A stretch of DNA of 63,856 nt, filler included, from Folioceros fuciformis (lineage: Eukaryota), in assembly GCA_049999805.1 (NCBI GenBank). It is 6 parts of 6 records of this genome, joined end to end, with 100 filler letters (N's around TTAATTAATTAA, not from the genome) between each part and the next. Parts side by side here need not be neighbours in the genome. Positions count along the whole stretch, not along the records: positions 1 to 23,808 come from JBNGIO010004167.1; 5 more parts are not named here. The stretch is one strand, 5' to 3'. Shown here one piece after another: positions 1 through 31,269 of this stretch. Position 1 is the first letter of the stretch. Every line of letters starts with the position of its first letter. A program made the translations under genes and the position numbers. The notes under the pieces are model-generated. The model did no database searches. It had not been told where the DNA came from and was given only the letters and a program-made list of their open reading frames with translations.

Positions 1-386
1 ACCTAGATGCCATCAAGGCGCCACACAGGCGCCACTTGGGCGCCATGCAGCCGCCACTTGGACGCCACCTAGGCGCCACCAGGCACTACGTGGGCGCCCG
101 TGACGCACGAAATGAGCGTGCCAGTGAAGCGAGGACCCGATTGACGAGCGCCAGAAAGTGAACAAATCGCAGACGCTGGGAGCGAGAGTGTGGGCGCCGT
201 ATTGACCCCGTCTGAGGAAGTCAGGATCTCGATCAGACGTAGGAGGACATTCCTGTTATGAGCGACAGAGGCCCAAGTCGTGGACATACGATTCGGAAGA
301 AGTTGTGAGGGTAACCTGTAGAATCTACATTTCATTTCGACCAATTTCAAACTAGCTTTTTGGTTGATTTGGATCGATTTTGAAGC

Positions 387-1810
387 ATGACGTCCTCAGA
401 AAACGTCATGTTCAATATCGAGAAGTTAGATGGTACTAACTTCCCGTTCTGGAAAGAACAAGTGTATAATGTTCTAGTACAGAAGAAGCAGATCAAGCCC
501 ATCAAGCTGCTAGGAGTGAAACCTGTTAGCATGACTCAGGATGAGTGGCAGGATCTAGATGAGCTTGCTAGGTCTACCATCATGCTAACAGTGTCGAAGT
601 CGGTCTACTTCAACGTGAAAGACAAGACCACAAGTTTCGAGCTATGGCAGAAGCTGTGTGACTTGTATGAGAAGCAAAGTGCGGCTTCTCAGGTGTATTG
701 GTTGAAACAGCTGATGGACTTGAAGATGAAGGAAGGGACGAGGATGTCCGATCATCTGAATGAGTTCAATACCATTTTCAGCCAGCTCTCATCTCAAGGT
801 ATCTCGTTCCCAGATTCCGTGAGAGCTATGTTTCTGTTGGTCACATTACCAGAGAGCTGGGACACCTTCCATACGGCTCTGAGTAATTCCGCTCCTGCCA
901 GTGGTCTTACCGTTGTAAATGTAGAAGGTAGCCTATTAACAGAGGAGGTGAACAGGAAGAATATGGAACCTTCGAAAGGTTCTAATGCCCTCATGGTGAG
1001 AGGAAGGTCCACTTCGAAGGGGAAGTACAAGGAGCGAAGTTCTTCCCGTAGCAAATCTCGTAGTCGTAACAATGTTGAGTGTTACCATTGTCACAAGAAG
1101 GGTCACATCAGAAGGGACTGCGAGAAGTTCAAGAAGGAAAAAGGTAAGGAGAAGAAGCAGAGCGACAACAAGGCAGATTCGAGTATCGAGCGTGATGAGG
1201 TGAACTCTGTTGACGATGAAGATGTTCTTATCTCTTCTTCTAATGGTTCTGCACAACTGACAGCCATGGAGAGTCACTTATTCTCTAATTGGATAATTGA
1301 CTCTGGAGCATCTTTCCATGTTACTCTGCATAGGGAGTGGTTTAGCACTTATGATGCTACTAGGAAAGGATGTGTTCGGCTTGGAAATAACTACGCGTGC
1401 GAGATAGCAGGCGTTGGTGATGTGCAGCTGAAGTTCGACAACGGATCTTCATTCACACTAAAGGATGTCAGGCATGTTCCGAAGTTGACCAAAAGCATGA
1501 TTAGCGCAGGGCAGTTGGATGACGCTGGCTACCACTGTTGGTTTGGAGATCGTTCTTGGAAGATCTCCAAAGGTTCTCTTGTGATAGCTCGTGGATCGAA
1601 GTGTGGCACTTTGTACTCACTTCAGGTAACCACTGTCAAGGATCATGTGATTTGTGTAGCGGAACAGCCAAGTGTTTCCTTGTGGCATAGTCGGTTAGGA
1701 CATATGTCTCAGAAAGGAATGAAGATCTTATCTCATTTTGGTTATGTCCCTGCTCTTGACTTCTCCGATTTCTCCGTGTGTGAGCACTGTTTGTATGGAA
1801 AACAGACGAT
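387..1810 (+). mobile_element. Ty1/copia LTR retrotransposon gag-protease-GAG-pre-integrase, 3'-truncated
   Basis: The ORF has a copia gag N-terminus (IEKLDGTNFPFWK), a CCHC knuckle (CYHCHKKGHIRRDC), a protease (WIIDSGASFH) and an HHCC region (LWHSRLGH...CEHCLYGKQ). Similarity stops at about 1810, where unrelated AT-rich sequence begins. Confidence 0.95.
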
Positions 1811-1914
1811 TGACAATAGTGTTGCATTTATGTGCTTGAGTGATGTACTTTGTTGCACAAATAAGTAAATAAGTCAGCAAGTGCGTTTGTTGTTTTTGAA
1901 AGAAGTCTCTTATT

Positions 1915-3757: not shown

Positions 3758-4020
3758 CATTTCCTTTTAAAAGATCATTTCATGGACTACGCGACGGACA
3801 GAGGTGTTCCAATATTCAATGTAAGTAGCCCTTCAGTCGCATTGCTACATACAGTACTTCGGTTTCTATAACGAACGTCTTCTTCATTTTCGTCATTATG
3901 GAGATAGTTGGACCTAAAGCTTGGTGTACCATCGTTGGTTGGCTTGTAATATCAGACCAGACGCAATGGTAAAACCCTTTTAGATATACCCTTTATGAAG
4001 GATATGTAGAAAGAAGGGCG

Positions 4021-4204
4021 AGGCGCAATCGGTCACTGTGAAAGTAATGAGGTGCTTGGCCATGCCCGCCATACCAACGCCGTGGGGAATGGGTTACCCG
4101 TTGGGCATGAGCTATTGAGGAATGTGGCCGTTGATCGCATGCGGGCATGGCCAGGCACCTCAAGACTCGTGCGCTCATTACTTTCGCAGTGACCACTAGC
4201 GCCT
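4021..4204. repeat. Imperfect foldback (MITE-like or hairpin RNA)
   Basis: Paired blocks are AGGCGC/GCGCCT, GGTCACTGTGAAAGTAATGAG/CTCATTACTTTCGCAGTGACC (20/21) and GAGGTGCTTGGCCATGCCCGC/GCGGGCATGGCCAGGCACCTC (20/21). Confidence 0.9.
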
Positions 4205-4403
4205 GCCTAAAAAAGGTACCTCAGGGTTACCATGCCATGGAGGCTGAGAGGAAGGCGTGTGGATGAGAAGAGTATGGCATGCGAAAGCGGACAGAAATTG
4301 TTTGCCCTCGTTTGTAGCATAAAAACCATAATGAATGATTGCTTTGGTGCTCAGACGGAAATTATTCTCCTTGCCAAGGAGGACATCTGCATTGGCACCA
4401 AAA

Positions 4404-4925
4404 TACTAGAGTCTTCTGGAAGCATATGAATCTTGTTTCCCCTTCTCTAAGTGAAAGCACTCCACACACCCATGGTATGATGGCTATCCCTTTTTATTTG
4501 AAGAGTGTGATTCCTCCAGCTTCTCGCACCTTTGCACGGCCCTCCTCACCAGAAGGCATATCGGGATGGAGAGGGCGATGCTTCACCCTCGCCAGCACCT
4601 CCACCTTCTCTTGCCTTTCCACTATATATGGCCCGCCTCTAATGAAAGGCAGATTGGGATGGAGGGGGCGGTGCCTCACCCTTGTTGCACCTCCACCTCC
4701 TCGTGCATTATGGCTTTGTCAAGAGGCCTTGCTCAGGATGTTTGTTGTGGATTGTTAGGTGTGAGGCGCACATATCGGGGAGCATGGAGGGAGACGTGGG
4801 TTGGAGAGGCACTTGGGAGGCAGCCCTATGGTTTGATCTGCTTATGCAAATACTTCCCCTTGTCAAACGCCAAATTGCCCAAGTTTGCACATGCCCGAAA
4901 GTGGCAAACAAATGTGTAGAATCAT
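4404..4925 (+). repeat. Left repeat block: part A (~4404-4720) is inverted at 8880-9292; part B (~4755-4925) is direct at 8225-8690
   Basis: CCTCACCAGAAGGCATATCGGGATGGAG at ~4544 matches reverse-complement CTCCATCCCGATATGCCTTCTGGTGAGG at ~9106. GGAGCATGGAGGGAGA occurs at ~4779 and ~8249. Part A contains ~90-bp subrepeats. Confidence 0.85.
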
Positions 4926-6383
4926 GACTGCTTATAGCCTGCTGCACAAGCAAGGCCTGCTCACAGTCCACCAGTCCACAAACGTAGCCATATTCGTCTA
5001 ACCGCATCCACGTTCAACGAAAGCACGGCTTATAGCAAATTCATGTATGCAAAAAAGCTCACAATTTTGGGGAAGGTTGTTGCACAAGCAAGGCCTGCTC
5101 AAGAGTCCACCAGTCTATTGACACAACCATATTCGTCTAGCCGGCTCATGGCAAATCAACATACACAAAAAGGTTCACAAATCCGAGTAGCAACCACGTA
5201 AATTCTACATTCGCTACACCTCCAGTGTCTACAACCACCCCCCCACCCGAGCCTCAACAAAAGCAGTGCAACAGATTAAAGTGCCTAGCCTAAATCTACA
5301 CACAACCCCAACCCCCTTCTGCCTGCCTACCTCTTCTACATGCACCCAACATCTACAGCAAGCTTCTCTAGGCTAGCCTTCACCATATCCAGCCCTACTA
5401 TGACCATTTCCACCATTGTCTACAAAACACCACCATGGACAAGGCAATGCAAATAGCATGCCTCACTCAGTTTGTACTGTCACTCACCCCCTCCAATGCA
5501 CACATCTTGCCCTTCACCTCACTCCCACCCCCCTTGTTGCCACGCTTGCAAATCTCGTCACTCACACACAAAGAAGCACCTGCAAATGCACGACGTTTGC
5601 CATTTCCATCCCTCACACACTCAACTACACGTCGTCTCCCTCCCCAGCCGCTCACTACATGCAATGCTTGCCGCTTCCTTGCCCCTACGCGACATCTATC
5701 TGCACTACTCTCCTTTGCCTCCTCCTTTGAGGAAGCATCCTCCGTGTATTGCACACTGGGTTTAGGGTTGCATATTGTATTGCACACTGCTATACCCTAA
5801 ACCCGTGTACTGAACTTAGCAACCTCCATTGAATGCCTGGCAACTTCCACTAGCGATGCAATGAGAGGATTCCGAGAGACAGGACATTCGCTATGAACGA
5901 TGCCAGGGCTGCTGCAGGCTGTCCGCACTAGGCCATCCACGCATGAGGCAAGGGAGGGCTACGTAGTGTCTCCCGTGGAAGAAAGGCAGCGAGGTGAGGG
6001 GGGCAAGAGAAAGCATGGGTTGTTGCAGTGGAAGGGAAGAGCGGGGATTGCCATGGAGCCGGTAATTGTGTTGAATGCCGCAGACGTTGAGNNNNNNNNN
6101 NNNNNNNNNNNNNNNNNNNNNNNNNNNNNNNNNNNNNNNNNNNNNNNNNNNNNNNNNNNNNNNNNNNNNNNNNNNNNNNNNNNNNNNNNNNATGGGAGGG
6201 GAGGAAGCGGCCACCACGCCTGCCCCAAATGATACAAATGTGGAGGGTGGAGAAGACGAGACGCCTAGGTAGGAGAGGTGTTCATTATAGCCCGCAAAGT
6301 TGCTAGAAATGTCATTGGAAACGAGGCAGACAGAAGGAATATTAAAAGACATGGCTAGGCGGCTCAGCTGTACGGAGTAAACA

Positions 6384-7655
6384 TTGAGGCAATGGCTAGC
6401 AGGTTGTCCGTGGTGGACTAGTGCATATGCGGGGCAGAACTTGATAATGGCGGAAGTGGTATCGATCATAGTGCAACATGTGGCAACAGCTAAGCAGGGT
6501 GTGACATGGGGGGTTGGTGTAGTCAGAGCGGCGTTTCATGATGTGTTGTACAACTTGCTTAGGTGGAAAATTGCAGTTGCATTGTGGGCATTGCAACCAG
6601 ATGCTTTGGCAAATGAGAGACACGCTTCGCATCCAGCAGGTGTAGTACACAAACAGGACGTCGATTGTGGAATGTAAGTGCCTGCCGTGTGCATAGTTGA
6701 GAGGAGGAGGGAGAATTGGTGGACTTGGGTGCTTGGAGAACATAAGTTCTGCTGGTTGTTGTAACCACTTGTAATGAGTGCTGACCATACATTTTGCTGT
6801 AGCATATGACAAGATGTATAAGTTTCATATGAGGGTGCATGCAGCCATAGATGGGGCCACACACTATGTAACGTGGGCAGTTTTGGCCGATAAAAAGAAG
6901 GCTGAAACAATTTTTGATGCGCACAATGGGGCAGTAGAGAAGTTTGGGCATTTACAGCGACTCCGATCAGACTTTGTAGTGGAGCATAACCTAGAAGAGG
7001 TAGACTTCATGAGAGCGAGACCTCGAGAGAATGGTAACAACTTCATTATCGGCCCATCTGTTCACAATCAGGTGAGGATGAAGAGGTAAACCTAGGGTGG
7101 AAATATAGGGTGCACAGAGAAAGGGGGTGAGGTTTGATTGAAGAAATAGCTTGCTAAGGTGGAACTTGTGGGCATGCCATGCCATAATCTGGTGGTGGAG
7201 GGGTGTGGGTGTTTAGTGTAGAGGATTGAACACTTTTGGTTCTTAATGAAGGAGAAGTGGGGGTTTTTGTATAAGGGTACATGCTGGATTTGCAAGAGAG
7301 CAATGAGTTGGACATGACAAACCCATGGCATGTGCACTCGCTACATGCAACATTCATGCCTACAATAAGGAAGGAGCTAGTCACCTTCATCAGAGTTTGG
7401 AACTTGCACAAAGTGAGGAAAATGGTTTCTAGAGATGGGTACATTCCAAGCCATGTTCCAATCGAGGCATTCCAAGAAGCAGAGCGCCTTGCTGGGCTTG
7501 TTAGGCCACCTCCATATAGTGTGGACAATGAAGATGATGGAGATTACATGGTTCCAAGGCTCCAATTTACACGGAATAATGCACCTAAGGTGTGGACCTT
7601 GCGACAAGTTCTATTGTTGAGAGGGGTAAGGCAAGTGGGGTGTGATGTTGGATGA
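6384..7655 (+). mobile_element. Degenerate intron-containing IS3EU-like DDE integrase/transposase
   Basis: Removing GT-AG introns 6674-6802 and 7072-7221 gives ..YDKMYKFHMRVHAAIDGATHYVTW..KKAETIFDAH..AVEKFG..RLRSD..FIIGPSVHNQ^RIEHFW..LDMTNPWHVHSLHATFMPTIRKELVTFIRVWNLHKVR. This matches the DK..HxxIDG..RSD..GxSVHNQRIE..WNxHxxR signature. There is a frameshift near 7279. Confidence 0.8.
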
Positions 7656-7908
7656 AGGTTTGTGTTACATGTCCTCACCCACAAGCTGGCTATGTAGGAG
7701 TTGGAAGATGCGAGAGATCGGACATACGTATTGGGCTGGAGTGTACAGACTACCTACTAGATGCATATTGCTTGCATCGGGCCTTGACATCAGTGTGCTT
7801 GTATAGTAGACGATGAGGTGTCTGCCTTGAAGAACAAGTTTGGATGTGGAGGGAGGAGAAGTGTAGCCTATGGACATGGTAGGCTATCAACCTACTGCGA
7901 GGCCTTTT

Positions 7909-7970
7909 GGTGGAAGGAGAGTAGAGTGGTGGAAGGAGAGTAGAGTGGTGGAAGGAGAGTAGAGTGGTGG
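7909..7970 (+). repeat. 19-bp tandem repeat x3
   Basis: (GGTGGAAGGAGAGTAGAGT)3 followed by GGTGG. Confidence 0.95.
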
Positions 7971-8224
7971 TAGGAGGTCACTTGTGGAAGCGATGTGGAC
8001 GTTCAACAATGTTATGAGCTAGAATGAGATAAAATCAATCGCACTTAGTAGGTTGACTGTGGACAATTAGAAAGGCAGAAAAATCAGACACCTATGATTG
8101 CGAGCAATTAGCGTTACAATTGGTAAGAACACTGTTTGCAATAAGATCGGGCAACTAGGCAAAATATGGGCAACCATTGAAGTGTGTCAAAAATCGGGCA
8201 AGGAAGGATATTTATTGCGGAATG

Positions 8225-9292
8225 TGAGTTGTGAGGCATACATAGTGAGGAGCATGGAGGGAGATGCGGGCTAGAGAGGGGCTTGGGAGGCATCCCTGCA
8301 GCCGTGGAGGGTGGCTAAAATGCGTGGTATGGATGGAGAGCTTTCGAGTCGAAACCATTCTCAGAAAACCTTGCTATCCGAGTTCCAAGTTCCAACAAGC
8401 ATTCCAAGTTGTCACATATTTGTGTTGGTCGAGTCTAGCATCCAATGTCAAACTGCTAGCAATAAACTCATCAGCTTGTAGTCCCCATGGTTCGATCTGC
8501 TTATGCAGATGCTTCCCCTTCACGAATGTTGGATTGTCCAACTTTGAACATGCCTAGACAAGGCACATGAAAGTGACAAAATCATGACCAGCTATGCTTC
8601 TCCTTGCATGGCAACGTAAAGACCGAGGGCTTTGTGCCCCATACCCTGTCGGAAGTATTCGACACAAATGTGATTGAATCAGGTATGGTGATGCATTCTT
8701 GCTGCATTTCACTGTAAAGTAGAAGATCTTGCTGGCACTTTGTGAGCATCTAGTACTGCGATGCCAAAGGGCAATCAATGTCGGGCTGCATGTGAGGCGC
8801 CCCAGCAGCCCTTCATGTGGTTCAGTTGCCCCTTAGCCACAAGGGTTGTAGGCACTAGCCATGGAGTGTGCCTAGAGCATGGATGGAGCTAGAGGCGCGA
8901 GCGAGGGTGAGGCACCGCCCTCTCCATCCCGATCTGCCTTTCACAGAGGCAGGCCCTGCAAAGCCGTAAGGCAGGAAGAGGTGGAGGTGCGAGCGCGGGT
9001 GAGGCACCACCCCCTCCATCCCGATCTGACTTTCGTACAAGCGGGCCGTGCAAAGTCGTAAGGTAGGAGTAGGTGGAGGCATGGGCGAGGGTGAGACATC
9101 GCCCCCTCCATCCCGATATGCCTTCTGGTGAGGGGGGCTGTGGAGTTGGAGGAATCTCACTCTTCAAATAAAAAAGGACAGCCATCACAGCATGAGTTTG
9201 TGGAGTGCCATCACAGCATGAGTGTGTGGAGTGCTTTAGCTTTCACTCAAAGAAGGGTAAACAAGATTCATACGCTTGCAAGAATGCTCGAG
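8225..9292. repeat. Right repeat block (direct copy of B plus inverted copy of A with three ~90-bp subrepeats)
   Basis: See the 4404-4925 entry. CTCCATCCCGAT recurs three times between 8920 and 9120. Confidence 0.85.
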
Positions 9293-9429
9293 AGCTAAAA
9301 TGGCCACTTCGGTTGGCGTTCCAAAGCAAGCACTCCACATTTCAAATCAGTAAAGCATATTCTCAAAGATACCCAAATGATAAACAATTGAAGAGAGGGA
9401 GGGTATGGCCGCTTTGGCATGCCATACAA

Positions 9430-9550
9430 GAGGATGTGGAAGAGCTTGCGAATGTGCTTCACACGCAGCTAACCATTCCTGGCTTTGGAATCACGCTTTG
9501 CAATGGTTAGCCGCATAAAGCCCATTAGCAAGCTCTTCCACTACGTCTTC
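9430..9550. ncRNA. Pre-miRNA-like imperfect stem-loop (candidate only)
   Basis: GTGGAAGAGCTTGCGAATGTGCTT..GCAGCTAACCATT pairs with AATGGTTAGCCGC..AAGCCCATTAGCAAGCTCTTCCAC around a loop of about 24 nt. No known miRNA was recognised. Confidence 0.35.
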
Positions 9551-9899
9551 ATGGGGCAAAAGCTAATCCCATCACAAGCATATGTTTCTATGGGATCAGC
9601 TCAAGTGGTGCTTCAAGTGCCCATCACCAGAAAAGCCTTGTGGGTTTGGAGCTTCCAGTCCAATTCCTCGATTTCAGCACACTCGACAGCCGAGTGAGAC
9701 ATATCTAAATAGATTCAAATCCATCAGACAAGTTCACTCAGAAAGTTCACAAATTACAGCAAGTACATGTAAGCAAAATGCAATGATCCACATCACAACG
9801 TGCTTTCTTGTCCTCCGGATCCCCACATACATGTATCACGAAGTATGTGTACCATCACAAACTGTAGAGCGTTTTTTCCTCAACACATACAGACACCAA

Positions 9900-10535
9900 C
9901 TACTGTACAGTGTACTGCCTGTCCAGATCAACCACAATGAGATCGTCCACAAATGGGAGCAACTTCTCTTGTTGCACAGCCTCCTGTCTGGGGTCCGAGC
10001 TGAACTTGGCCAAATCGTCCACGGACTCGAACCTCAGCACCAAGGCCCACCCGTAGCCCTGGCTTCTGTGCTTAGAGAAGTCGACACCCACGCTGCTTCC
10101 CACTGCATACAAGGCCTTGATTTGCTTCTCGACCTCCAGCAAGGGCGTCACATCCTCCTGCCTCACGCCGTCCTTGGGCCTCGCAAGCACCACGCGCACG
10201 GCACCAAGCTTACTGCTGGGGACGACATCATCAGGACTTTTCTCCCAGTCCACTGCTATAACATCATCCACGACAGTAGTCCCAAATTGCACCACTCGTT
10301 GATGTATGGGGTGCACATTGTACGCCTCCAGATGCGCCTTGTCCTTGTACCTGCTATAGAGAGCGTGGGTGAAGCCTGCCCGCAAAGGCCCCACGGCAGG
10401 CCCGGCGGTGAGCTCCAACGCCTCCTCCAGCTTCTCCAAGCCCCTCAAATCTGCCTCCAGAGCGGCCGATGTCTCGGGGGGAGAGCCCTCCTTCAACCTG
10501 AACAACACCACATGCCCTCCAATGCTTGAAGCCAT
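9900..10535 (-). CDS. Stress-responsive A/B barrel (Dabb) protein with two domains, intronless
   Basis: Motifs HVVLFRLKEG, GFTHALYSRY..HLEAYNVHPIH and DVIAVDW. A second repeat includes RSQGYGWALVLRFES..LPFVDDLIVVD. Confidence 0.92.
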   Translation of the reverse strand: MASSIGGHVVLFRLKEGSPPETSAALEADLRGLEKLEEALELTAGPAVGPLRAGFTHALYSRYKDKAHLEAYNVHPIHQRVVQFGTTVVDDVIAVDWEKSPDDVVPSSKLGAVRVVLARPKDGVRQEDVTPLLEVEKQIKALYAVGSSVGVDFSKHRSQGYGWALVLRFESVDDLAKFSSDPRQEAVQQEKLLPFVDDLIVVDLDRQYTVQ

Positions 10536-10664
10536 GCTCGCCGATTATGAGTCTGCTTCACCCTCGTGCCAGCCCACTTTCAAGATCAGCTTCTCAAGGT
10601 TGTCATTGTTTACCGGGTCCAATCGTCTTAAAGCACTGTATCACCATCATCGCACAGTGGAGAA

Positions 10665-11046
10665 GACTCCCGTAGGTGGATCCCACGTATTCGCGGCCGA
10701 AGAAGGACGGTGAATGAACGACAACATTTTGTAACTTTCTGGGAAGCCGCAGGTCCCGACTATCGAAGCTGCATACGACATTGCGTTCAGTCCGGCGTCT
10801 GCAAATGGGGCAGGGGGAGCCGCATCCAGCCCGCAGCCCATTTCCCACAAGGGACTCCCGTAGGTGGATCCCACGTATTCACGGCCGAAGAAGGACGGTG
10901 AACGAGCGACAACTTCTTGTAACTTTCTCAGAAGCCGCAGGTCCCGACTATCGAATCTGCAAACGACATTGCCTTTCAGTCTGGCGTCTGCAAATCGAGC
11001 CAGGGAAGCCACATCCAGCCCGCAGCTATGGCCATTTCCCACAAGG
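10665..11046. repeat. Tandem duplication of a 188-bp unit upstream of the Dabb gene
   Basis: GACTCCCGTAGGTGGATCCCACGTATTC..CCATTTCCCACAAGG starts at 10665 and again at 10853. Confidence 0.95.
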
Positions 11047-11341
11047 CGTGCTTCGTTGCTCGCTTCCATTTTCTCTCTTGGCGATCACCAGGATAAACTT
11101 GCCCATATCTTGTCAAGCTATCGATGTACATGTGACGTAATCGGTATGATGATTGTATGCATATGTATTGACCAACACCTGAGGCAGCCTAACATGGGTG
11201 CGTTGGGAGAACACGGCGGAGCATCCTCACGACTCCGACTTCGAGAGATTACACCCAAAGAGACTGGGAGAGTTAGCCAGCCTAATGATGAGGAGACAGA
11301 ACAACTGCATGAGTTTACTGCCATTTCAACAGCCAGGCCCT

Positions 11342-12753
11342 CTAGAAATGCGGGTTGAACGCCGAACAGTTTGCTCGAATTTCACCATCAGATCCCGTCT
11401 TCACTCCAACAGAAGAGAATTTGATCATGGACTCTGCAAATACTTGAAAGAAAGCATCCTGAGCAGCAGCCAGAGTGAAAACCAGTGGCCTCGTGGACTG
11501 GTCGGTGAAGAAAACTTGATCTGAGAGGAGCAGTCCCCTGCCTGAGAGCAGGTTGAGGTAAAATTTGTTGTCGAAGGTGAACGATGTATCCGCATCGAAA
11601 GCCACAGTAGTGTCCGGGTTGCCACCTACCAAGGGGCATTGTTTCTGGAAGACGGCAAGTTTTGGTACCCTCAGTCGTCTGCGGGACACTGTGAATGAAA
11701 AGGCGTTTGGTAGTAATGCACTGCTTACTCACCTGGAGGTCGAGGGCGAATTGCAGATCCATGCTCGGGTCGGTGGTGAATGAGCTGTTGAAACTATACA
11801 GGCGGCTCATCAGCGGATCACAATGCGAAAAGCCGATTGTGTGTGCGCCTGTTAGCACAATGCAGAAACAGAACAGAATGGACCGTGGAATACGTTGTGT
11901 AAAAAGCAGCTGCAGACTTGTAATATGAAGGAGAGCGCGTTTGGATCGCACCGGCAAGAATGACCAAGTCATCCAGTGAAAGGCCGAGGTTGCCAAATAT
12001 TTGGGCTTGTTGCTGAACATCCATGCTTGATGATGGGAGAAATCCTTCGACCAGAGATGCAAGCGAAAACAAGCCATCTCGACGTCCCTTCGGGACCTCC
12101 CAGGTTGGGCCTCCTGTCTGTGGAGAAGATCCAGTGATGCACGCTTATTCGTACTTCGAAAACAGGCATTCGCTAGACAAGACGACTCGAGAGAAGTTCG
12201 TATTTACAACTTTTACCAGGGAAACCACGTCCCGTGCGATCATGGCTAATATATCTGCACAAGACACAGTCGCAGGACACTGCTTCTCGACCTGTTCCTT
12301 TGCAAGGAAAACCGTGGCAAAGGCCTGTGCTGGAATGCTTTGATTGTCCGAGTGATCTCTCTCCGCAAGGGTGCCGTTGTCCGAGGCGATCAAGATGGAC
12401 CCATCGCAGCCCTGCCAAAACACAAGAAAGCGCAAATGCTGCCAAGGTGTGGTCTCCCTAGTTATTTTACCAGCATACACACGTAACAATTGAAAGATCG
12501 GACATTGTACCTGCACGAGGCAGTCGTGCGCAAACAACCTGAGCGCTGAAGGTGCAACCACATTGGACTGTCTCATCAAGTTTGCAACCGTGCCCCGAAC
12601 AATTTCATCCACATTTGGGCAGCTCGTGGCGTAGAAGTCGACAGTCAGCTGCCCTTGTGCGCGATCCAAGCTCCACAGGGTATGCATCAAGCCCACCAAC
12701 GCAGCCAAGACGATCGACCCGGCCATTCTGATTGGAATGCAAACTTTTCTCAA
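11342..12753 (-). CDS. Class III secretory peroxidase, 5 exons (introns 12412-12510, 12118-12216, 11849-11951, 11645-11732)
   Basis: It has a signal peptide, QLTVDFYATSCP, distal RLFAHDCLVQ^GCDGSILI, VSCADIL, GGPTWEVPKGRRDG, proximal GAHTIGFSHC, FDNKFY, GLLLSDQ and GEIRANC. The GT-AG junctions join in frame. Confidence 0.96.
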
Positions 12754-13156
12754 AACACTTTCCCACGACGTTGCCGTATTGGAGAAACCAGGTGCTTTAC
12801 CGGCACAGGGTCACATGTGAGAACATGTGTCGCATGTGAAGCTGGAGACAAGTTAGGTTGCAGGATAAGTAGGGAAAGGACCTTGTGAACCAGATACTAG
12901 GATCCGATGTCTACGCTAGACTGATTCTTGTAGGGGTGGGGGGAGGATCCGGAGGAGAAATAGCAGAGGATTATGAGCTTCTTTATAAAAGACTGTACAA
13001 CGAAGATCACAAGTTATGAAGACTGAATACAATCAGGCTGAATTCCCCACACAAACAAAGGGGAAGCGACAATGTACAAGTGCACACACGCAGAGAGCAA
13101 ACCATCCTCCGTTATGTTACTGACCAAGCGTGAAGACGGTACCGTATGCACCACCA

Positions 13157-13825
13157 TCATAAGATGTCCGCCCCACCAGTCCCACCGCCCCTGCCATTTC
13201 CGCTACAACTTCCATCCAAACGCGACCTCTTCGCAGAGTCCAAGCAATCTGCTTCCGTCTCCCCATCCGACTCTCCATTCATGGCTGTCGACTGACCCGT
13301 CTTTCTCTTAGCTCTCGCCTTGCGGTTCTGAAACCAGTTGTAAACATTCGTCTCCTGAATGGCTCCGTGCGCGCTCAGCTCCACTGTGATCTCCTTGATG
13401 CGCTGCTTGTTTGGAGTTCCCCCGCCCTTCCGAAACAGCCTCTCCAGAATTCGGAGCTGGTTCTGGCTCGGGGTCCAGCGCTGCCTCGCGGTCACTCTGT
13501 GCATCCCATTTCCCAGCGACGCATGATCAAACATGTGATTGACGACCACTCCGGGCATCTGAGAATGCTCTTGCACGCTGGCCTTCTGCATCTCCGCCAG
13601 CTGGCGGCAAATGGTGGTGTACACCGATATCTGCCGTTGAAGCGTTTCCACCTGTTCTTCAGTCATGGCTGGCTGCACCGGTACCTGTAACTGCGCATGT
13701 ACAGGAGGCGGCAGCACCATAACCGGGGCCGGAGCCGGGGTCGGTTCCGCCGGTGCAGCAAAAGCGTAAACTGCAGGCGGCTGCACTCGCGGCAGGCCAA
13801 CAGGATCCAAACCCAGGCTACGCAT
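13157..13825 (-). CDS. WOX13: WUSCHEL-related homeobox protein, WOX13 (ancient) clade; CDS intronless
   Basis: The WOX13 motif MTEEQVETLQRQISVYTTICRQLAEM precedes the homeodomain RQRWTPSQNQLRILERLF..GTPNKQRIKEIT..ETNVYNWFQNRKARAKRK. The first in-frame ATG is at 13825. Confidence 0.93.
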   Translation of the reverse strand: MRSLGLDPVGLPRVQPPAVYAFAAPAEPTPAPAPVMVLPPPVHAQLQVPVQPAMTEEQVETLQRQISVYTTICRQLAEMQKASVQEHSQMPGVVVNHMFDHASLGNGMHRVTARQRWTPSQNQLRILERLFRKGGGTPNKQRIKEITVELSAHGAIQETNVYNWFQNRKARAKRKTGQSTAMNGESDGETEADCLDSAKRSRLDGSCSGNGRGGGTGGADIL

Positions 13826-14921
13826 GTTTGTTTTCGACAACCGGAACAAATTGCACACACACGTTGGGCAAAGCTTTAGAGACGAAACAGACTGGCGGAA
13901 ACCAGAAGCGCGATGATTCAACCACTTGTATGCTCTCGTTCTCTCAAACTTCAACCCCAGCTCGAGATTCCCGACGTTCACCAGCAGGCCGTGCTTGCAA
14001 GCTTGCTTGCTTTCTTCAACCTTTAAGAGCTCTCAGGATCTGAAACTTGTCTCACGACACAATGGACAATCAACCAATTTTAAGAACCAGATCCTTGTCA
14101 GAACAGACAACACTGCTCGGCTGAGCACTCCGTCGACTGGCTGGTTGCAGCGGGCAAGAGCAAGCTTGCAACTGGCGTCAGGAAGTCGACCTGAAACTGT
14201 GTGAGAAACGAAGCCTGACGCAATGTTTCGCTACACAGACGAACAACTTGCAGGTCTTGATCTAGACATCAAGAGGCGGATTCAGGTCAGAGCGTTCAGT
14301 CACGGATGAGCAAGGACACCAATGACACGGGAGGAATATGGTCACCAGACAATTCGCTCCGACTTGAAATTGCACTTCGAAAGGAACTTCTCCGACTTCT
14401 GCTTGACTTCGGGAGAGGAACTTCTCAAATTCTCGACTCTCGAGAGACTGCAATTTCTTCTCCACACATTCACAGTTACTCCGCCTGGCTGACTTCACGG
14501 CCGGGTCGATTTATATCTGGACACGAGAACTACACACGTCCACACAACGAAAACCTGAAGCTCTCAACCTTTGTTAAGCTCCACGGCAGGCATGCGTTTC
14601 AAGACAGCCCATGCCCCAATGCACATGCAGATCAAAAGAGACAGACTAGTTGTACTGGCGTTCGGATTTTGGCCACCAGGCACCAGAGCCCGGCGTGCTC
14701 TTGTGTCGCACCGCTCGGGCAGGCGTCCCTGTTTCAGGCCGATTGACTTCCAGCACTACCTGAAACTGCCAGGAGACAAACAACGGTTTCGCAACCGGCG
14801 CAGGCTGATACAATCGGAACGATTATGTCTCTCTCAGGAAAAAATTGAGTCCTGGACGTCGGGAGAACAGAGACGCAGATTCAACTTGTCCAGCATCGAG
14901 CTGATCTCCCTCCCGGCTGCG

Positions 14922-15060
14922 GAGACGTGACGTCTCGAAATCCAAGTGACGGGCGCGGTGGCCGCATTATACATTAGCCCTAAAAAGCCAAGTGGACGCC
15001 GGAACTTCAGTGGCGGCGATAGCGGCTAAACAGAAGCCGGCGAGTTTAGCTGCACGTGTC
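14922..15060. promoter_or_regulatory. ACGT-core/ABRE-like motifs in the divergent WOX13-CMT1 intergenic region
   Basis: GAGACGTGACGTCTC is a near-palindrome with two ACGT cores (14922-14936), and CACGTGTC occurs at 15053-15060. Short motifs like these can arise by chance. Confidence 0.3.
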
Positions 15061-15297
15061 GCTTGCCACCTCATCCGTTTAGGCGTGGCCGGGTGGAGAG
15101 GGGATCACAGCAACCCCTGGCAGCCCGGCCCAGGATCAGGCGCAACAGGGGCGCAGCAGGGATCGGAGTGAAGTTGCCTGCATTCGCACGGACGACAGGC
15201 CTAAAAGTGGCGGACCTGCGTCTGGTGGAACAACCAAGGTGAGGAGCAAGTATAGCGCGGGCGTAGGGGTGAAGGGAGAGCTCGCTGCGGGCTGGCG

Positions 15298-17931
15298 ATG
15301 GCGGGTGCGGGAGCGTCCGCCTCAACCATGGCCGACGCCTTCAGGTTCGCCTCCGCGCCCGCCTCGCCTGCGCCCTGCGCCTCCAGCTGCGCCTGGACGG
15401 GCTCGCCGGTGGTGGTGGCGAGAGTGTTCTGGTCCGGGAGCGGCCAGCCGGGTCGTAGGAGATGGAGCAAGTTTGCGAGCCGCCTTACATTCTTGTCCTC
15501 CGGCGGGTAAAGTACCAGCCGGCGAGTTCTCTTTCTCTTCCCCCCGCCTGCCTTCCGTCGCCGTTGTTTGCAGGTCGGAAGAATTTTTTGTGGCCAGCCT
15601 CGCATCTCGTGCACGTGGCCGGATTCAGTGCCTCTGTGCTGGTTGTGGCAGGAATTTTATGTGACGAAGAGTCATAGCAGCTGACTCACGCACAGTATCC
15701 GGGATGGATGTCTCCATTCTCGGCCCTACAGTTACGCATTTTAGGGGCTTGCTGGAAGAATGTGCTGAACGGGAATGAGCTGCTATGTGCGTTCCTTCTT
15801 ATTCGAGCGAGCGCAAGTGGAAGAGATAGGCTTTTCATGGATTATTCTGCTGCCTAGTCCAGACAGTTTATCATGGATCAGGCTGCTGCTTGGTCCAGAA
15901 CTCGTCCACGGATCGTCCAGGTCGTCCTGTGAATTGCCAGTCCCTCGTCTGAAGCCTACCTCGTTTTATGTTTTCAACAGAGGACTGGTTAGGAATGAGT
16001 GCTTGGAAGGTGGCAGCTCTCTCGGATGCGTTCGAGCGTTTGGCCTAGGTGAGTGCCGTCTCGGAGTAAATGTGATGGCCCTGTCGATTCTCGTCATGCA
16101 CGAAAAGTTGTGCTCTATGACTGAGGCCGGGTATGGATGTCATGTTTTATGTTACAAGGATATTCAGGGACTCCTCCGAGATTTGCGAGGCACAATGTTT
16201 CTGCCTCAAGCGCAGACTTTGGATCAGGAGGTTACAGGGAAGGAAATGAGGTGGACGTCTCAGCAGACGATGAGAAGCCCGTCCCACAAACAGCACCGCA
16301 AGTCATGTAATGTCATAGTCTCCTCAAGGTTCAGGATTTCCTAATTAATGGCTCATGTTGCGAGTACTCGCTATGTTGTGTGCTAGTCCTTTCCAGAGTA
16401 ATGAGCCTCTTACTTTGCAAAAAGTATTTTCTGTCTGTGATGCTCAAAGACGTGCTATGCGCTTGTGCAGACAATCGTCTGTAGGGGACAGGAAGCAGAG
16501 TTTGCAGGCTGTAGGTGCTCTGTCAACTCTCATTGTTGTGGGCTTAGTAGCTGCCGTTGTGGCCACTCTTTCAAGTGGGGGGCCCGCTGCACTCGTGGCA
16601 GCTATAGCCAAATCAGGCTTCAGTGCAGCATTTGCACTTATTTTCGTGTCTGAAATTGGCGATAAGGTAGGAATTTCGAAGGTTGTGAGCAAGACGTGAT
16701 GTCTACCTCCATAACTTGTCCTTAGCCTACTGGTTTTGCATGGCAAGAACTATCCGTTGCATTGCTGACTTTAGGGCGATCCGTGCAGACTTTCTTTATT
16801 GCGGCATTGTTAGCTATGCGGCATTCAAGGGGGCTGGTATTTTCCTTACCTTGATGTATTGTGCTCTGGTCTCGGATATCTCTGCTGCACAGTTTTTTTT
16901 GGAAGATCATGATTCCGATGGGCAATTCTTGACAGTGCAGGTTTTGCTGGGGGCATCGACTGCCCTGGGCCTTATGACAGTAATCTCTGTCCTCATTGGG
17001 AGGCTGTGTCAGCGTGTTCCCCAACAACTTCAGACAAGTGCGTGAAAGCTTGAGGGAGCACTTTTCATACGTTCCTCTTCGTCGTAGACATTACGAGCAT
17101 ACTCGTTTGTTATCCGTAACCCCTTCCATGTGTTGCCTACCCAGCTCTTCCTGTCGGAGAATATGCGGCTGTTGCATTGTTGATCTGGTTCGGGTTGAGG
17201 TCTATCAAGTCCGCGTACGATTTGCCGTCTGCTCCTTCCACTAGTCGAGGTAATCAGGGAACAGAGTGTGGAGAACTCGCGGAGGCAGAGGAGTTTTTGA
17301 AGAAATCAGAGGTAGGAGTTAGTGGAAGCAAAGAAATTTTCCGTTTAAAAAACCCTTTATCTAGCGATTTAATATCCTGGCTACAGGGTGAGAAGAAAAT
17401 CAGTACCCCACTTGAGGTGCTCGTGGAAGCTTTTAGCCTAGTTTTTCTAGCGGTAAGCAGCTCATTGTTCTGCCTGTTCACAATACAAATTGATTTCATC
17501 TCTGACATGGGATGTGTTCGTATCCAGGAATGGGGTGACCGATCAATGCTGGCAACTGTAGCACTTGGTGCCGCTCAGGTAACGTGTCCCAGAAATCACG
17601 TGCTCTTTGTGGGCATTTCGCGGTTTTCATGTCTGAAACATAAGTTGCTCTTCTGGCAGTCGCCATGGGGAGTCGCATCCGGAGCCATTGCGGGTCACGT
17701 TTTGGCAACCGCCCTGGCTGTCGTTGGTGGGGCTTTTCTTGCCGAGCATATATCCGAGAAAGTGGTAAGTTTTCTCATTTCGTGCTTGCTTGTAAGACCT
17801 GATCGCCCTAGTTACGGGCCCCTTTAGGATGAACACTGTGTTCACCCCTGCTGGTGGTGTGGTAGGTGGGATACATCGGAGGTGTCCTTTTCTTAATTTT
17901 TGCGGCAGCCACCTTGCTGGGAGTGTTTTAA
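15298..17931 (+). CDS. CMT1: Chloroplast GDT1/UPF0016 Mn2+/Ca2+ transporter (PAM71-HL/CMT1-like), multi-exon; 5' exons tentative
   Basis: Spliced exons give GGPAALVAAIAKSGFSAAFALIFVSEIGDK^TFFIAALLAM..LPVGEYAAVALL..FLA^EWGDRSMLATVALGAAQ^SPWGVASGAIAGH..ISEKV^VGYIGGVLFLIFAAATLLGVF*. The Ala/Ser-rich first exon looks like a transit peptide. Confidence 0.92.
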
Positions 17932-18478
17932 CCGTGTTCGTACCTGTACTCAATGTGGTACCGCGGAGTTTTGTGGAGACGTCCTGAGGTAGATATTAAA
18001 TGTTACCTCGTCCTGATTTATGTACACATGGCCCACATTAGGTAGTCTACATCGTGACTTAGGGTACTTCGCGGAAGTCCGCAATCGCCGGACATTTTTG
18101 GCATTGGACGACCCGTCGTCTTCTTTTTTGTCTAGACGATCTTTATTGTGATGCAAAATTATATCTTGCTTATAATGCTGAGCTGGTAGTTGTGGAGAGT
18201 TGAAGATGTCTACAAGTAAGATTGCCACGAATTCAAATATTTTATTGCTTATTAATTTTAACACTCTAAAAATGATAATATACATTATGGACGAATTAGG
18301 TTTAGTCAAAGAAAACTGTTTTTTAATGAAAGCCCTAGACTTCTTTGGGCAACTGGGCTCCCAAAAAATCATACGCCCACCCCGTCCCCAAAGGTATATA
18401 TATATATACCACTATATGTGCAGGCAAAGTCATCACACGGCTATTCGTGCTTTTGAGTTTCAGTGACCTTTGCTGAAG

Positions 18479-19494: not shown

Positions 19495-20572
19495 TCATAA
19501 CCCTCTTACATCACAGGTCCGTGCCATGAGTGAGTCCAGGTTACGAGGGACGTGGGCTCAGGAGATGGCGATGTGTCTGTACAGAATTCCAGACTAAGTC
19601 GGCGATGATGTGACATCCAATTTTTTTGGTTGTACCGTAATCCAGGTCTTCTAGGGATGGACAACGAGACGTAGGATTGTGTCATAAAAGCACAGCAGCC
19701 TGACGGAAAAGATTGGATGCTTCCGCATCTTGGCAATGAAGAACAGCAATGCATCAGGAAATTGGGCACTATGTACCTCCTGATCGCTACCTTACCCTGC
19801 AGCCTGTCCAATGATTGGAGTTGGGATGGATATAACTGGACCAACATGCTGCTGAGCATTGACTTTCTCCCATTCTCGGGCCGTTAGTGAGGGGTAGGTT
19901 TTGATGGACACGGGCCTCCAATAAGTCCGGACTGATGGCTGATTGTCCAGTAGCAACGGGCCATAATTGCAAGAGCCAGAACAATTGCGGATGAAGGAAG
20001 ATTGAGGATGATCTGGGAAAGCCAGATTGGAGAAAACTGGCTGCTCAACAATTTGGCAACCAAACGATATTTCTGTGAAGTCGAGTGGCTGCGGATCTGA
20101 ATCTTCTCATGTGAAGACTTGAGTTTGGACTAGTGAACTGACGGGAAGCGATGACGGATGGGAAGTGACTGCGGATCCAAGTGGTCTGCATACAAGCTGT
20201 CCGGTCAATGGCCAGAATCCACAGCTGCAAAAGGTGGACAGAAACTCTTCGCTCTTGTCGGATGAAGCAGTAGAAAGAGTGATGTATCTAGATAGCTTGT
20301 AAGTGCTACGATCGGGAAAATAAAGGACGATTTCTGTTGTGCAATCCTGGAATTTCACGTGCTCACATCTCCATGTATGTACATCAAATCTGGCCTAACA
20401 GTTATGTACAACTCTGAAAGGACGGACGATTTTGGGACTCTGTACATCCCTTGAAGGTCACGAACCTTCATGGTTCAAACTTCTACCGCACCCAGCTCGA
20501 CAACGGGAGCTGGAGAAGCAAGATCTGCGCCCATGGCAATCGATTTGAAACAAATGAACCCCATCTTCTGTG

Positions 20573-31162: not shown

Positions 31163-31269
31163 GTGAGAANNNNNNNNNNNNNNNNNNNNNNNNNNNNNNN
31201 NNNNNNNNNNNNNTTAATTAATTAANNNNNNNNNNNNNNNNNNNNNNNNNNNNNNNNNNNNNNNNNNNN

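What the first reader, a model, noticed from the sequence alone, without database searches (positions are those of the whole stretch)
6384..7655. Spliceosomal-intron-containing IS3EU-like DDE transposase in a land plant
Seen: the ORF track shows only fragments, but removing a 150-bp GT-AG intron (7072-7221) rebuilds GPSVHNQ^RIEHFW. A 129-bp intron (6674-6802, with a CTGAC branch-like site) precedes YDKM..HAAIDG..RSD. Established: this signature belongs to integrase-core transposases of the eukaryotic IS3-like group, which I know mainly from fungi and animals and not from standard plant TE superfamilies. Inference: this is an under-annotated DNA transposon lineage retained in non-seed plants or acquired horizontally. 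This copy is frameshifted.
Basis: partly seen in the sequence, partly recalled or inferred. Interest (0 to 1): 0.75.

Follow-up and report, generated by a model that had tools for sequence, protein, structure and literature searches.

The report
Dead GingerRoot/IS3EU DNA transposon copy
This is a broken copy of a GingerRoot (IS3EU-type) cut-and-paste DNA transposon in a land-plant genome, a transposon group already described in 2019 from clubmosses and mosses, so it is a sound but ordinary find.

Summary
Window 6381-7652 (+) carries an intron-split integrase-core (Pfam rva_4) transposase gene.

- **Intron 2 (7072-7221):**
- **Intron 1:** ends at 6802 as described. Its donor is better placed at 6667 than at 6674, because only 6667 keeps the frame and gives the family's D-S-Y join.
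- **Frameshift:** real. It is a 1-bp loss in the G run at 7275-7277. Sibling contigs from the same sample carry the extra G.
- **Catalytic residues:** all three survive, as D(56)D(35)E.

The gene sits inside a complete element, 4273-9426:
- inverted terminal repeats of about 450 bp;
- termini TATGG...CCATA;
- a 6-bp target-site duplication (GAAGAG / CAAGAG, 5 of 6).

These are the published IS3EU/GingerRoot hallmarks.

The sequence signature matches Selaginella lepidophylla GingerRoot proteins in a published alignment. A tree puts it on the plant side, apart from the clade that holds the one animal-labelled hit. Both intron positions recur in relatives.

The IS3EU assignment is therefore right. 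The lineage is not new, though: GingerRoot was reported from lycophytes and bryophytes in 2019 and merged with IS3EU in 2023. I found no support for recent horizontal transfer. The host lineage within land plants stays unresolved.

Verdict: a new member of a known kind, of low to moderate interest.

The parts
4267..4272 (.). Left target-site duplication (GAAGAG)
   Evidence: Matches 9427-9432 at 5 of 6 positions, directly outside the TA...TA termini. The chance of 5 or more of 6 at a fixed position is about 0.005 (my calculation).
4273..4730 (+). Left terminal inverted repeat. It starts TATGG and holds about two subterminal repeat units of about 90 bp (4513-4709).
   Evidence: Inverted-repeat pairs I1-I10. 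Local alignments to the reverse complement of 8951-9427: outermost 24 nt 20 of 24, core about 79%.
4870..5540 (.). 671-bp stretch that at least one sibling copy lacks (an insertion here or a deletion there)
   Evidence: Joint 4869->5541 in one contig each of X1 and X2, with 18 other letters between.
6092..6191 (.). Assembly gap (100 N) inside the element; the real gap is about 6 nt
   Evidence: A contig of run X3 bridges 6091->6192 with only GGGGGG between, depth 6.76.
6381..6666 (+). Upstream coding exon (open frame, 95 codons + 1 base): pre-catalytic region. It ends in the first catalytic Asp (codon 6663-6665).
   Evidence: Collinear but weak match to profile positions 57-103 on its own (E 0.32). 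It becomes part of one continuous 157.9-bit match once spliced. There is a weak collinear match to Selaginella moellendorffii P0031 residues 197-265 (E 0.4). No Pfam hit alone.
6667..6802 (+).
   Evidence: Only this donor keeps the frame and yields D-S-Y. In 18 of 20 relatives' genomic fragments the residue before Y-[D/E]-K is A or G, as expected when the G of an AG acceptor is read as the first codon base.
6803..7071 (+). Catalytic-core exon: YDKM...IDG...RLRSD...GPSVHNQ. Second catalytic Asp at 6970-6972.
   Evidence: Pfam rva_4 E 6.9e-9. Own profile E 7.7e-28. 86 relatives at E<=1e-3 among 1.84 billion representatives.
7072..7221 (+). Intron 2, 150 nt, GT...AG, phase 0
   Evidence: Profile continuity. 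P0006 and P0013 read straight through the join. 18 of 32 plant-type relatives break right after HN[Q/V], 16 of those 18 with V (GTN) next; 12 are uninformative. All 5 short broken fragments among the 10 relatives scanned end at rva_4 position 103, as this exon does. Sibling contigs keep CAG|AGG ATA GAG CAT TTT TGG.
7222..7652 (+). Downstream coding part: RIEHFW (catalytic Glu at 7228-7230), then the C-terminal half of the rva_4 domain. Stop at 7653-7655. A GTAAGG at 7626 could be a further donor (untested).
   Evidence: Pfam rva_4 positions 126-170, E 2.1e-7. The distance from RIEH to VWNLH is 58 residues, as in P0006, once the frameshift is bridged.
7275..7277 (+). Frameshift: G run one base shorter than in sibling copies
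   Evidence: 'Put in behind 7274: G' in 4 contigs of X1 (depth 73 of 105) and 3 of X2 (40 of 63). The window's own form is in an exact contig 7062-7768.
8951..9426 (-). Right terminal inverted repeat, ending ...CCATA, with three subterminal repeat units of about 92 bp (8886-9124)
   Evidence: Contig depth falls to the single-copy level (about 11) beyond about 9430.
9427..9432 (.). Right target-site duplication (CAAGAG)

Best explanation
Window 4273-9426 is one complete, end-to-end copy of a GingerRoot/IS3EU-superfamily class II (cut-and-paste) DNA transposon. It is about 5.06 kb once the false 100-N gap is closed.

**Gene.** Its single recognisable gene lies on the + strand, with at least three coding parts (6381-6666, 6803-7071, 7222-7652) split by two spliceosomal GT-AG introns. 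It encodes an RNase-H-fold DDE transposase of the rva_4 integrase-core type with a D(56)D(35)E triad.

**Mechanism (inferred from the family, not shown here).** In an intact element the transposase would bind the long terminal inverted repeats and their ~90-bp subterminal repeats. It would cut at the TATGG...CCATA ends and insert with a staggered 6-bp cut. After repair this leaves the 6-bp duplication seen here.

**State of this copy.** It cannot make the enzyme. A 1-bp deletion at 7275-7277 shifts the frame 16 codons after the catalytic Glu, and no N-terminal DNA-binding exon can be recognised. It is one member of a diverged multi-copy family in this genome. At best it could be moved in trans by an intact sibling.

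**Origin.** It belongs to the plant branch of the superfamily and looks inherited within plants, not recently imported.
For: **Shown here**
- Family: rva_4 hits on two collinear exons. 10 of 10 relatives scanned have rva_4 as best family.
- Signature: the spliced reading shows D-S-YDKM, IDGATH, RLRSD..EHN and GPSVHNQRIEHFW. This matches S. lepidophylla GingerRoot (for example SL_GR-020) and Repbase IS3EU rows in the published alignment. It includes the plant-specific 'EH' where the listed animal and fungal rows have 'G.E[NT]' (supplement of PMC10045372, part 12).
- Triad spacing: D56D35E.
- Splicing: the spliced model scores 157.9 bits against 88.5 unspliced.
- Element ends: inverted repeats with TATGG...CCATA termini and a 5-of-6 6-bp TSD. 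Published hallmarks are a 6-bp TSD and TA..TA termini for GingerRoot (PMC6839031 section 15) and for IS3EU (PMC10045372 passage). Fungal IS3EU show TAYGG..CCRTA (PMC12730594 section 3.1.3 passage).
- Multi-copy: 110 contigs of X1 were laid at >=80% likeness, 65 of them under 90% alike. Siblings carry the unshifted frame and the same acceptor plus RIEHFW.
- Tree: among 86 rows it falls in a 21-row clade (SH-aLRT 85) with P0003, a fragment that by eye matches SL_GR-014 closely. It lies outside the 51-row clade (97*) that holds the jellyfish sequence.
- Linkage to plant DNA: an exact contig runs from 8382 through the right end into the flank. The same contig-segment holds a class III peroxidase, a homeodomain gene and a COPT5-like gene.
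- Content: only 2 of 56 ORFs of 45 aa or more inside the element have a significant Pfam hit, both rva_4.
Against: - The TSD is imperfect (5 of 6).
- The repeats (about 450 bp) are longer than the 100-150 bp reported for S. lepidophylla. Their middle part (4296-4416 vs 9284-9403) aligns poorly.
- Direct repeats 4735-4895 ~ 8205-8554 show the internal structure is not a simple TIR-gene-TIR.
- The donor proposed for intron 1 (GTGGAA) is weak, and a consensus GTAAGT lies 7 nt downstream. No RNA evidence decides between them.
- No N-terminal HTH exon was found.
- The tree rests on 130 columns. The window's end branch is long (1.45), its clade has SH-aLRT 85 and not 95 or more, and the two named S. 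moellendorffii proteins fall elsewhere.
- Best identity to any of 1.84 billion representatives is only 46-51%.
- Sibling data come from the same sample that probably gave the assembly, so they are not independent of it.
- No second full copy could be fetched to confirm the ends, and no empty site was seen.
Confidence: 0.88

Rival explanations
1. It is a leftover integrase fragment of an LTR retrotransposon (Ty3/gypsy or Ty1/copia), of which the window holds several.
For: Pfam rve also matches exon 2 weakly (E 3.8e-4, 21.1 bits). Copia elements lie at 384-1865 and at three further places in the window. GingerRoot integrase cores are related to Gypsy integrases (PMC6839031 abstract).
Against: - rve is below its cutoff (32.6), while rva_4 is above its own on two exons.
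- No RT, RNase H, protease or gag hit lies inside 4273-9426: 0 of 56 ORFs.
- The repeats are inverted, not direct LTRs.
- The signature and the TAYGG..CCRTA ends are those of IS3EU/GingerRoot.
- The 95 codons upstream of the first Asp hold a single cysteine, so no HHCC motif.
Confidence: 0.03
2. It is a recent horizontal acquisition from a fungus or animal, or foreign DNA mis-assembled into a plant scaffold.
For: Language-model look-alikes of the C-terminal part are clusters labelled mostly Basidiomycota or Ascomycota. IS3EU is best known from animals and fungi. The window is a chain of contigs joined by artificial spacers.
Against: - It groups with plant-type sequences, not with the clade that holds the jellyfish protein.
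- It shares the plant-specific EH signature with Selaginella GingerRoot.
- Both intron positions recur in relatives.
- It has many diverged siblings in the same sample.
- An exact contig links its right end to the neighbouring gene. All plant genes cited lie in the same spacer-free segment 1-23808.
Confidence: 0.05
3. It is a host gene domesticated from a transposase. On this reading the introns and conserved exons reflect host function, not a mobile element.
For: It has spliceosomal introns at positions conserved among relatives, and all three catalytic residues are kept.
Against: It has a frameshift, flanking inverted repeats with a TSD, many diverged copies, a long terminal branch and no recognisable N-terminal part.
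Confidence: 0.03

Closest known systems
GingerRoot elements of Selaginella lepidophylla (Cerbin et al. 2019, PMC6839031)
   Same: - The DDE core signature is the same, including D-S-YDK[LM], IDG, R.R[SA]D..EH and HN[QV][RK]IE..W (alignment rows SL_GR-005/-009/-014/-020/-069).
- 6-bp TSD, TA...TA termini, terminal inverted repeats, and a size within the 3.9-12.9 kb range.
- The host is a land plant.
- An intron after HN[Q/V] is implied in a Selaginella-like genomic fragment, P0003. It reads on into non-homologous residues where SL_GR-014 has KIEAFW.
   Different: - Identity to any fetched relative is only about 40-50% over the core.
- The inverted repeats are about 450 bp with ~90-bp subterminal repeats, against 100-150 bp.
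- This copy is dead.
- The introns of the transposase gene are not discussed in the main text of that paper: 'intron' occurs once, about captured gene fragments.
IS3EU superfamily of Repbase (animals, fungi); Kojima & Bao 2023 (PMC10045372), Kojima 2025 (PMC12730594)
   Same: - One lineage with GingerRoot (bootstrap 99).
- W/H..D-[SG]-YDKL or -NHKL, IDG, R.D, HNQRIE.W.
- 6-bp TSD and TA..TA ends. Fungal families end TAYGG..CCRTA, exactly as here.
- No HHCC motif upstream of the core.
   Different: - The listed animal and fungal IS3EU rows have G.E[NT] after the second Asp where this copy and the Selaginella rows have .EH plus a short insertion.
- Some fungal families carry TET/JBP and alpha-kinase genes. 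None is seen here.
Ginger1/Ginger2 DNA transposons and Ty3/gypsy integrases (Pfam rve)
   Same: RNase-H-fold DD35E integrase core. Ginger2 also makes 6-bp TSDs.
   Different: The core signature differs (rows Ginger2-*). rve scores below its cutoff here. No HHCC, GPY/F or chromodomain was seen. The published tree separates them from IS3EU/GingerRoot.
Bacterial IS3 / IS481 insertion sequences
   Same: Related DDE core and the presumed prokaryotic ancestry of the superfamily.
   Different: This element has spliceosomal introns, long inverted repeats and a eukaryotic host. The termini are TA..TA where those have TG..CA.

Membership tests
IS3EU/GingerRoot superfamily | DDE transposase core with the superfamily's signature blocks and a D..D(35)E triad | tested here: met
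   Spliced reading compared by eye with the published alignment rows IS3EU-* and SL_GR-*. Triad at 6663-6665, 6970-6972 and 7228-7230, spacing 56 and 35.
IS3EU/GingerRoot superfamily | Pfam rva_4 (PF24764) is the best-matching integrase-core family, not rve. That rva_4 covers IS3EU is my inference: relatives and the Repbase-like signature share it. | tested here: met
   (36.1 and 31.3 bits, cutoff 26; rve 21.1, cutoff 32.6). 10 of 10 relatives have rva_4 as best family.
IS3EU/GingerRoot superfamily | 6-bp target-site duplication | tested here: met
   GAAGAG at 4267-4272 vs CAAGAG at 9427-9432, 5 of 6. One copy only; not checked on siblings.
IS3EU/GingerRoot superfamily | Termini 5'-TA...TA-3' (fungal families: TAYGG..CCRTA) | tested here: met
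   TATGG...CCATA. Literature passages.
IS3EU/GingerRoot superfamily | Terminal inverted repeats | tested here: met
   They are longer (about 450 bp, imperfect) than the 100-150 bp of S. lepidophylla or the '>30 bp' of fungal families.
IS3EU/GingerRoot superfamily | No HHCC zinc-binding motif upstream of the core | tested here: inconclusive
   None in the 95 codons recovered upstream, which hold one Cys, and no zinc-finger Pfam hit. The true N-terminus was not found.
IS3EU/GingerRoot superfamily | Phylogenetic placement with GingerRoot/IS3EU proteins | tested here: inconclusive
   The tree of 86 rows places it with plant-type fragments including a Selaginella-lepidophylla-like one (SH-aLRT 85), apart from the 51-row clade at 97*. 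No Repbase IS3EU, Ginger or LTR outgroups could be included, because sequences from a paper cannot be fed to the tools.
IS3EU/GingerRoot superfamily | Repeated, dispersed copies in the genome | tested here: met
   110 contigs in X1 and 100 in X2 laid at >=80% likeness, most under 90% alike. Exact copy number is unknown.
LTR-retrotransposon integrase (Pfam rve) | rve domain above threshold, adjoining RT/RNase H, direct LTRs | tested here: not met
   rve is below its cutoff. No RT or RNase H lies within the element. The repeats are inverted.

The most novel reading that the evidence does not exclude
The host may lie outside the two plant groups (bryophytes, lycophytes) to which GingerRoot has been said to be restricted. 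Separately, two intron positions recur here, in a Selaginella-like genomic fragment and in the unnamed plant-type fragments that are informative (18 of 20 at the first position, 18 of 20 at the second). If these fragments come from different plant lineages, this would mean that an intron-bearing GingerRoot transposase gene has been passed down vertically since early land plants. Sibling copies in this genome keep the unshifted frame, so the family may still be active.
Probability: 0.15. Interest if true: 0.45.

Novelty: new member of a known kind. Interest (0 to 1): 0.22.

Why it matters
Little changes for the field. The copy adds one more plant genome, and one fully delimited element, to a superfamily that standard plant repeat libraries still tend to miss.

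Useful by-products:
- exact ends (TATGG...CCATA, 6-bp TSD, ~450-bp repeats with ~90-bp subterminal units);
- a D56D35E triad;
- two intron positions that appear conserved across plant GingerRoot copies, and that the main text of the 2019 description does not discuss.

These can seed proper annotation of the family in this genome. They also give a marker for telling vertical descent from transfer.

Tried and rejected
- **Whole genome:** none is held, so copies could not be collected.
- **Word-index protein search** with exon 2, longer proteins: no hit.
- **Rfam:** no match in the window.
- **RNA evidence:** no RNA holder is listed. The one run guessed to be RNA (X4) laid contigs only at 4853-4914, 8449-8658 and 9407-9900, none on the transposase exons. 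This says nothing about expression or splicing.
- **N-terminal exons:** tblastn of 100 fetched proteins and a 35-sequence profile against all six frames of 4200-9500 found nothing beyond the three known parts. The next best pieces had E 6-9.
- **Naming relatives:** of 30 cluster look-ups only 3 carried an organism name, two Selaginella moellendorffii and one jellyfish.
- **Host lineage:**
  - The double-Dabb ORF found only Diphasiastrum complanatum proteins, at 33-36% identity.
  - The COPT5-like ORF is 43-51% identical to the named top hits (angiosperms, Ginkgo, Marchantia) and 72% to an unnamed sequence.
  - Conclusion: land plant, lineage unresolved.
- **DNA of relatives from metagenomes:** P0012 found nothing. 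P0237 gave one locus, L001, with only a 24-residue match and no transposase.
- **A possible second, very decayed transposase scrap** at 8129-8212 and 4802-4834: E 0.02-0.4 only, and not seen by the profile. Treated as unproven.
- **Literature search for 'PF24764':** one unrelated paper.
- **Supplements and unread papers:**
  - The supplement of the GingerRoot paper was listed but not read. Its tables of species and element coordinates could bear on host range and TIR sequence.
  - The 'IS3EU' search listing includes angiosperm genome papers (PMC10722297, PMC10576809, PMC11074139), seen only as listing rows. I did not read how the term is used in them.
  - PMC10741241 cites GingerRoot only in its reference list.
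Full report
**What is in the sequence.** The region shows no long ORF on the + strand, only pieces.
- The piece 6805-7071 (89 aa) matches Pfam PF24764 rva_4, 'integrase core domain', at E 6.9e-9 (36.1 bits, cutoff 26) over profile positions 18-103 of 194.
- The piece 7275-7652 matches positions 126-170 of the same profile at E 2.1e-7.
- The classical integrase family rve reaches only 21.1 bits, below its cutoff of 32.6.
- The 20-aa piece that starts RIEHFW and the upstream ORF give no hit by themselves (2 of 4 peptides hit).
- There is only this one copy in the 63.9-kb window.

For intron 1 the acceptor (AG at 6801-6802) and the CTGAC at 6781-6785 are right. The GTAAGT donor at 6674 leaves the frame broken. 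A GT at 6667 gives an intron of 136 nt in phase 1 and an open join in which a Ser codon is formed across the junction...D-S-YDKM....

I built a profile from 35 long relatives and scored three gene models.

| Model | Score | Match |
|---|---|---|
| Donor 6667, intron 2 removed, X at the frameshift | 157.9 bits | one unbroken match, profile 58-281 |
| Unspliced | 88.5 bits | stops at the first intron met |

D-S-Y is also what the family has at this point (see 'Which family' below).

The catalytic residues are all present:
- Asp at 6663-6665, the last codon of the upstream exon;
- Asp at 6970-6972;
- Glu at 7228-7230.

The spacing is 56 and 35 residues, a D,D(35)E triad.

**Relatives support the joins.** A full HMMER scan of 1.84 billion representative proteins with exon 2 gave 86 hits at E<=1e-3, 3 at E<=1e-10 and none at E<=1e-30. 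The best had 71 bits and 46-51% identity.

Most of the closest hits are roughly 80-180-aa ORFs called on genomic or metagenomic contigs, that is, single exons read into their introns. I took the 32 rows on the non-animal side of the tree, leaving out the window and two Selaginella moellendorffii gene models.
- **Intron 2 position.** 18 of 32 stop being homologous immediately after HN[Q/V], and in 16 of these 18 the next residue is V (a GTN codon). 2 of 32 (P0006, P0013) read straight on into RIEHWW. 12 of 32 are uninformative. (plus P0006 and P0007 read by eye, because my pattern missed them.)
- **Intron 1 position.** On the other side, 18 of 20 fragments that show residues before Y-[D/E]-K have A or G there. 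This is what is read when the G of an AG acceptor is taken as the first base of the codon. None shows the D-S of the spliced proteins.
- **Pfam.** 10 of 10 relatives scanned have rva_4 as best family. All 5 short broken fragments among them end at profile position 103, where the window's exon 2 ends. The two continuous ones run on to positions 151 and 173.

So both intron positions are shared with relatives, and the second is absent from some copies.

**The frameshift and the siblings.** I laid Logan contigs of four coded runs on 3800-9900 at 80% likeness or more.
- Run X1 laid 110 contigs and X2 laid 100. In X1, 65 of the 110 are under 90% alike. This is a diverged multi-copy family.
- 4 sibling contigs in X1 (depth 73 of 105) and 3 in X2 (40 of 63) have one more G behind 7274. 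The window's copy therefore lost one G from a G run at 7275-7277.
- With that base counted, the distance from RIEH to VWNLH is 58 residues, the same as in P0006.
- The shorter form is not a slip of the assembly in hand. An exact contig covers 7062-7768 with no differences. It comes from the same sample, however.
- Siblings also keep ...CAG|AGG ATA GAG CAT TTT TGG, that is, the acceptor and RIEHFW, while their intron sequence no longer aligns.
- A contig of X3 crosses the 100-N gap at 6092-6191 with only six G between, so the gap is spurious in length.
- At least one sibling lacks 4870-5540.

**The whole element.** The gene lies between long inverted repeats, about 4273-4730 and 8951-9426.
- The outermost 24 nt agree at 20 of 24 positions. 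A stretch follows that aligns poorly, then a core at about 79%.
- The core holds subterminal repeat units of about 90 bp: two on the left and three on the right.
- The ends read TATGG...CCATA.
- The six bases outside them are GAAGAG and CAAGAG, 5 of 6.
- Contig depth drops to the single-copy level (about 11) right of about 9430. The left flank is itself repetitive, so depth does not mark that end.
- Inside the element only the two rva_4 pieces give significant Pfam hits (2 of 56 ORFs of 45 aa or more). No captured gene is recognisable.
- Direct repeats 4735-4895 ~ 8205-8554 remain unexplained.

**Which family.** The supplement alignment of Kojima & Bao 2023 (PMC10045372, supplementary file 1, part 12) lists Repbase IS3EU proteins and the GingerRoot proteins of Selaginella lepidophylla.
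- Both have ..H.D-[SG]-[YN][DH]KL, then ..IDG.., then R.R[STA]D, then HNQRIE..W.
- The Selaginella rows read D-S-YDKL, IDGAT, 'EH' after the second Asp, and HNQRIEH (SL_GR-020). The window's spliced reading has these same features.
- The animal and fungal rows in that part have G.E[NT] where the Selaginella rows have EH.

Published structural hallmarks:
- GingerRoot: 6-bp TSD, 5'-TA...TA-3' in 72 of 77 intact elements, TIRs of 100-150 bp, length 3.9-12.9 kb (PMC6839031 section 15).
- IS3EU: TA..TA termini, TSD usually 6 bp (PMC10045372 passage).
- Fungal IS3EU: 6-bp TSD, TIRs over 30 bp, ends TAYGG..CCRTA (PMC12730594 section 3.1.3 passage).

The window's element meets all of these. Its repeats are longer than those of S. 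lepidophylla. IS3EU and GingerRoot form one lineage with bootstrap 99.

In my tree the window's protein falls in a 21-row clade (SH-aLRT 85). The tree has 86 rows and 130 columns; P0020 was left out as an unrelated repeat protein. That clade includes P0003, which by eye is close to SL_GR-014. The window's protein lies outside the 51-row clade (97*) that holds the jellyfish protein. Its end branch is long, at 1.45. The two named S. moellendorffii proteins sit apart, and resolution is limited.

**Host.** The element shares a spacer-free segment of the window (1-23808) with these genes:
- a class III peroxidase;
- a homeodomain gene;
- a double-Dabb gene;
- GDT1 and CwfJ genes;
- a COPT5-like copper transporter.

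An exact contig links the element's right end to the Dabb flank. This is land-plant DNA.

The lineage stays open. The Dabb ORF finds only Diphasiastrum (a lycophyte), at 33-36% identity. The COPT5-like ORF is about equally far (43-51%) from angiosperms, Ginkgo and Marchantia.

**How it most likely works.**
- Shown: the anatomy (ends, TSD, repeats, exon-intron structure, triad), the frameshift, and the multi-copy state.
- Inferred from the family: an intact copy's transposase binds the terminal and subterminal repeats, excises the element and inserts it with a 6-bp staggered cut.
- This copy is dead. The frame shifts 16 codons after the catalytic Glu and the 5' part of the gene is unrecognisable. 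It could at most be moved in trans.

[quoted passage not shown] It was found in bryophytes and lycophytes but not in charophytes, gymnosperms or angiosperms (PMC6839031 abstract and section 21). A 2022 paper lists it among eight plant DNA-transposon superfamilies and calls it absent from angiosperms analysed so far (PMC9804982 passage).

Recent horizontal transfer is not supported.

What may be new is small:
- a new, diverged family in one more plant genome;
- its exact ends;
- two conserved intron positions. The main text of the 2019 paper does not mention transposase introns; 'intron' occurs once there, about captured fragments.

I did not read that paper's supplement. I could not add Repbase sequences to a tree.

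**Verdict.** This is a real feature, correctly recognised, belonging to a known superfamily: a new member of a known kind. Interest 0.22.

Noticed in passing
window 23809-23908, 31170-31269, 41067-41166, 50249-50348, 57125-57224: Five identical 100-base spacers of the form N44-TTAATTAATTAA-N44, a linker with stops in all six frames. The window is therefore a chain of contigs whose order and adjacency across these points is not assured. Plain 100-N gaps lie at 6092, 29462, 44031, 54298 and 60717, and a 10-N gap at 36154.
   Followed up: partly
window 3800-9900 (run X3): Run X3, from the same sample as X1 and X2, differs from the window almost only by C>T (242 places) and G>A (170 places). It looks like bisulfite- or enzymatically converted DNA. 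Unconverted Cs in it could give the methylation state of this element.
   Followed up: no
window 9407-9900: A contig of the run guessed to be RNA (X4; 1238 nt, no differences) covers the flank of the neighbouring double-Dabb gene (ORF 9903-10544, - strand). It ends at 9407, 20 nt inside the element's right terminus, so that gene's transcript may end in the transposon's terminal repeat.
   Followed up: no
window 8492-8695, especially 8597-8648: A short stretch inside the element has the highest contig depth (128 in X1). It is also present in several contigs of the RNA-like run, with unlike sequence on both sides. It is probably a separate small, abundant repeat.
   Followed up: no
window 4735-4895 and 8205-8554: Direct (not inverted) repeats of about 80% identity just inside the two terminal repeats. 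They are unexplained by a simple TIR-gene-TIR layout.
   Followed up: no
window 8129-8212 and 4802-4834: Very weak resemblances (E 0.02-0.4) to the region around the second Asp and to the residues just after the RIEH motif of plant-type relatives. They may be scraps of an older transposase fragment or may be chance. My profile did not pick them up.
   Followed up: partly
proteins P0006, P0013 versus P0007 (fetched relatives): P0006 and P0013 are closely related to P0007. They read straight through the second intron position on long genomic contigs (180-300 kb), while P0007 breaks there. This points to intron loss or retro-copies within one family.
   Followed up: no
window 7912-7968: Three tandem copies of a 19-nt unit (GGTGGAAGGAGAGTAGAGT) downstream of the transposase gene, inside the element.
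   Followed up: no
window 384-1865 (+), 38022-38441 (+), 39787-40992 (-), 44848-46871 (+), 52840-53712 (-): Several Ty1/copia retrotransposon pieces (gag, Pol beta-barrel, pre-integrase, RVT_2). The left flank of the GingerRoot copy (3800-4207) is also repetitive by contig depth.
   Followed up: no
window 9903-21076: A run of host genes to the right of the element: double Dabb (9903-10544, -), class III peroxidase in four exons (11345-12810, -), a homeodomain gene (13160-14032, -), GDT1 (16689-17824, +), CwfJ C-terminal domains (18743-19491, +) and a COPT5-like copper transporter (20576-21076, -).
   Followed up: partly
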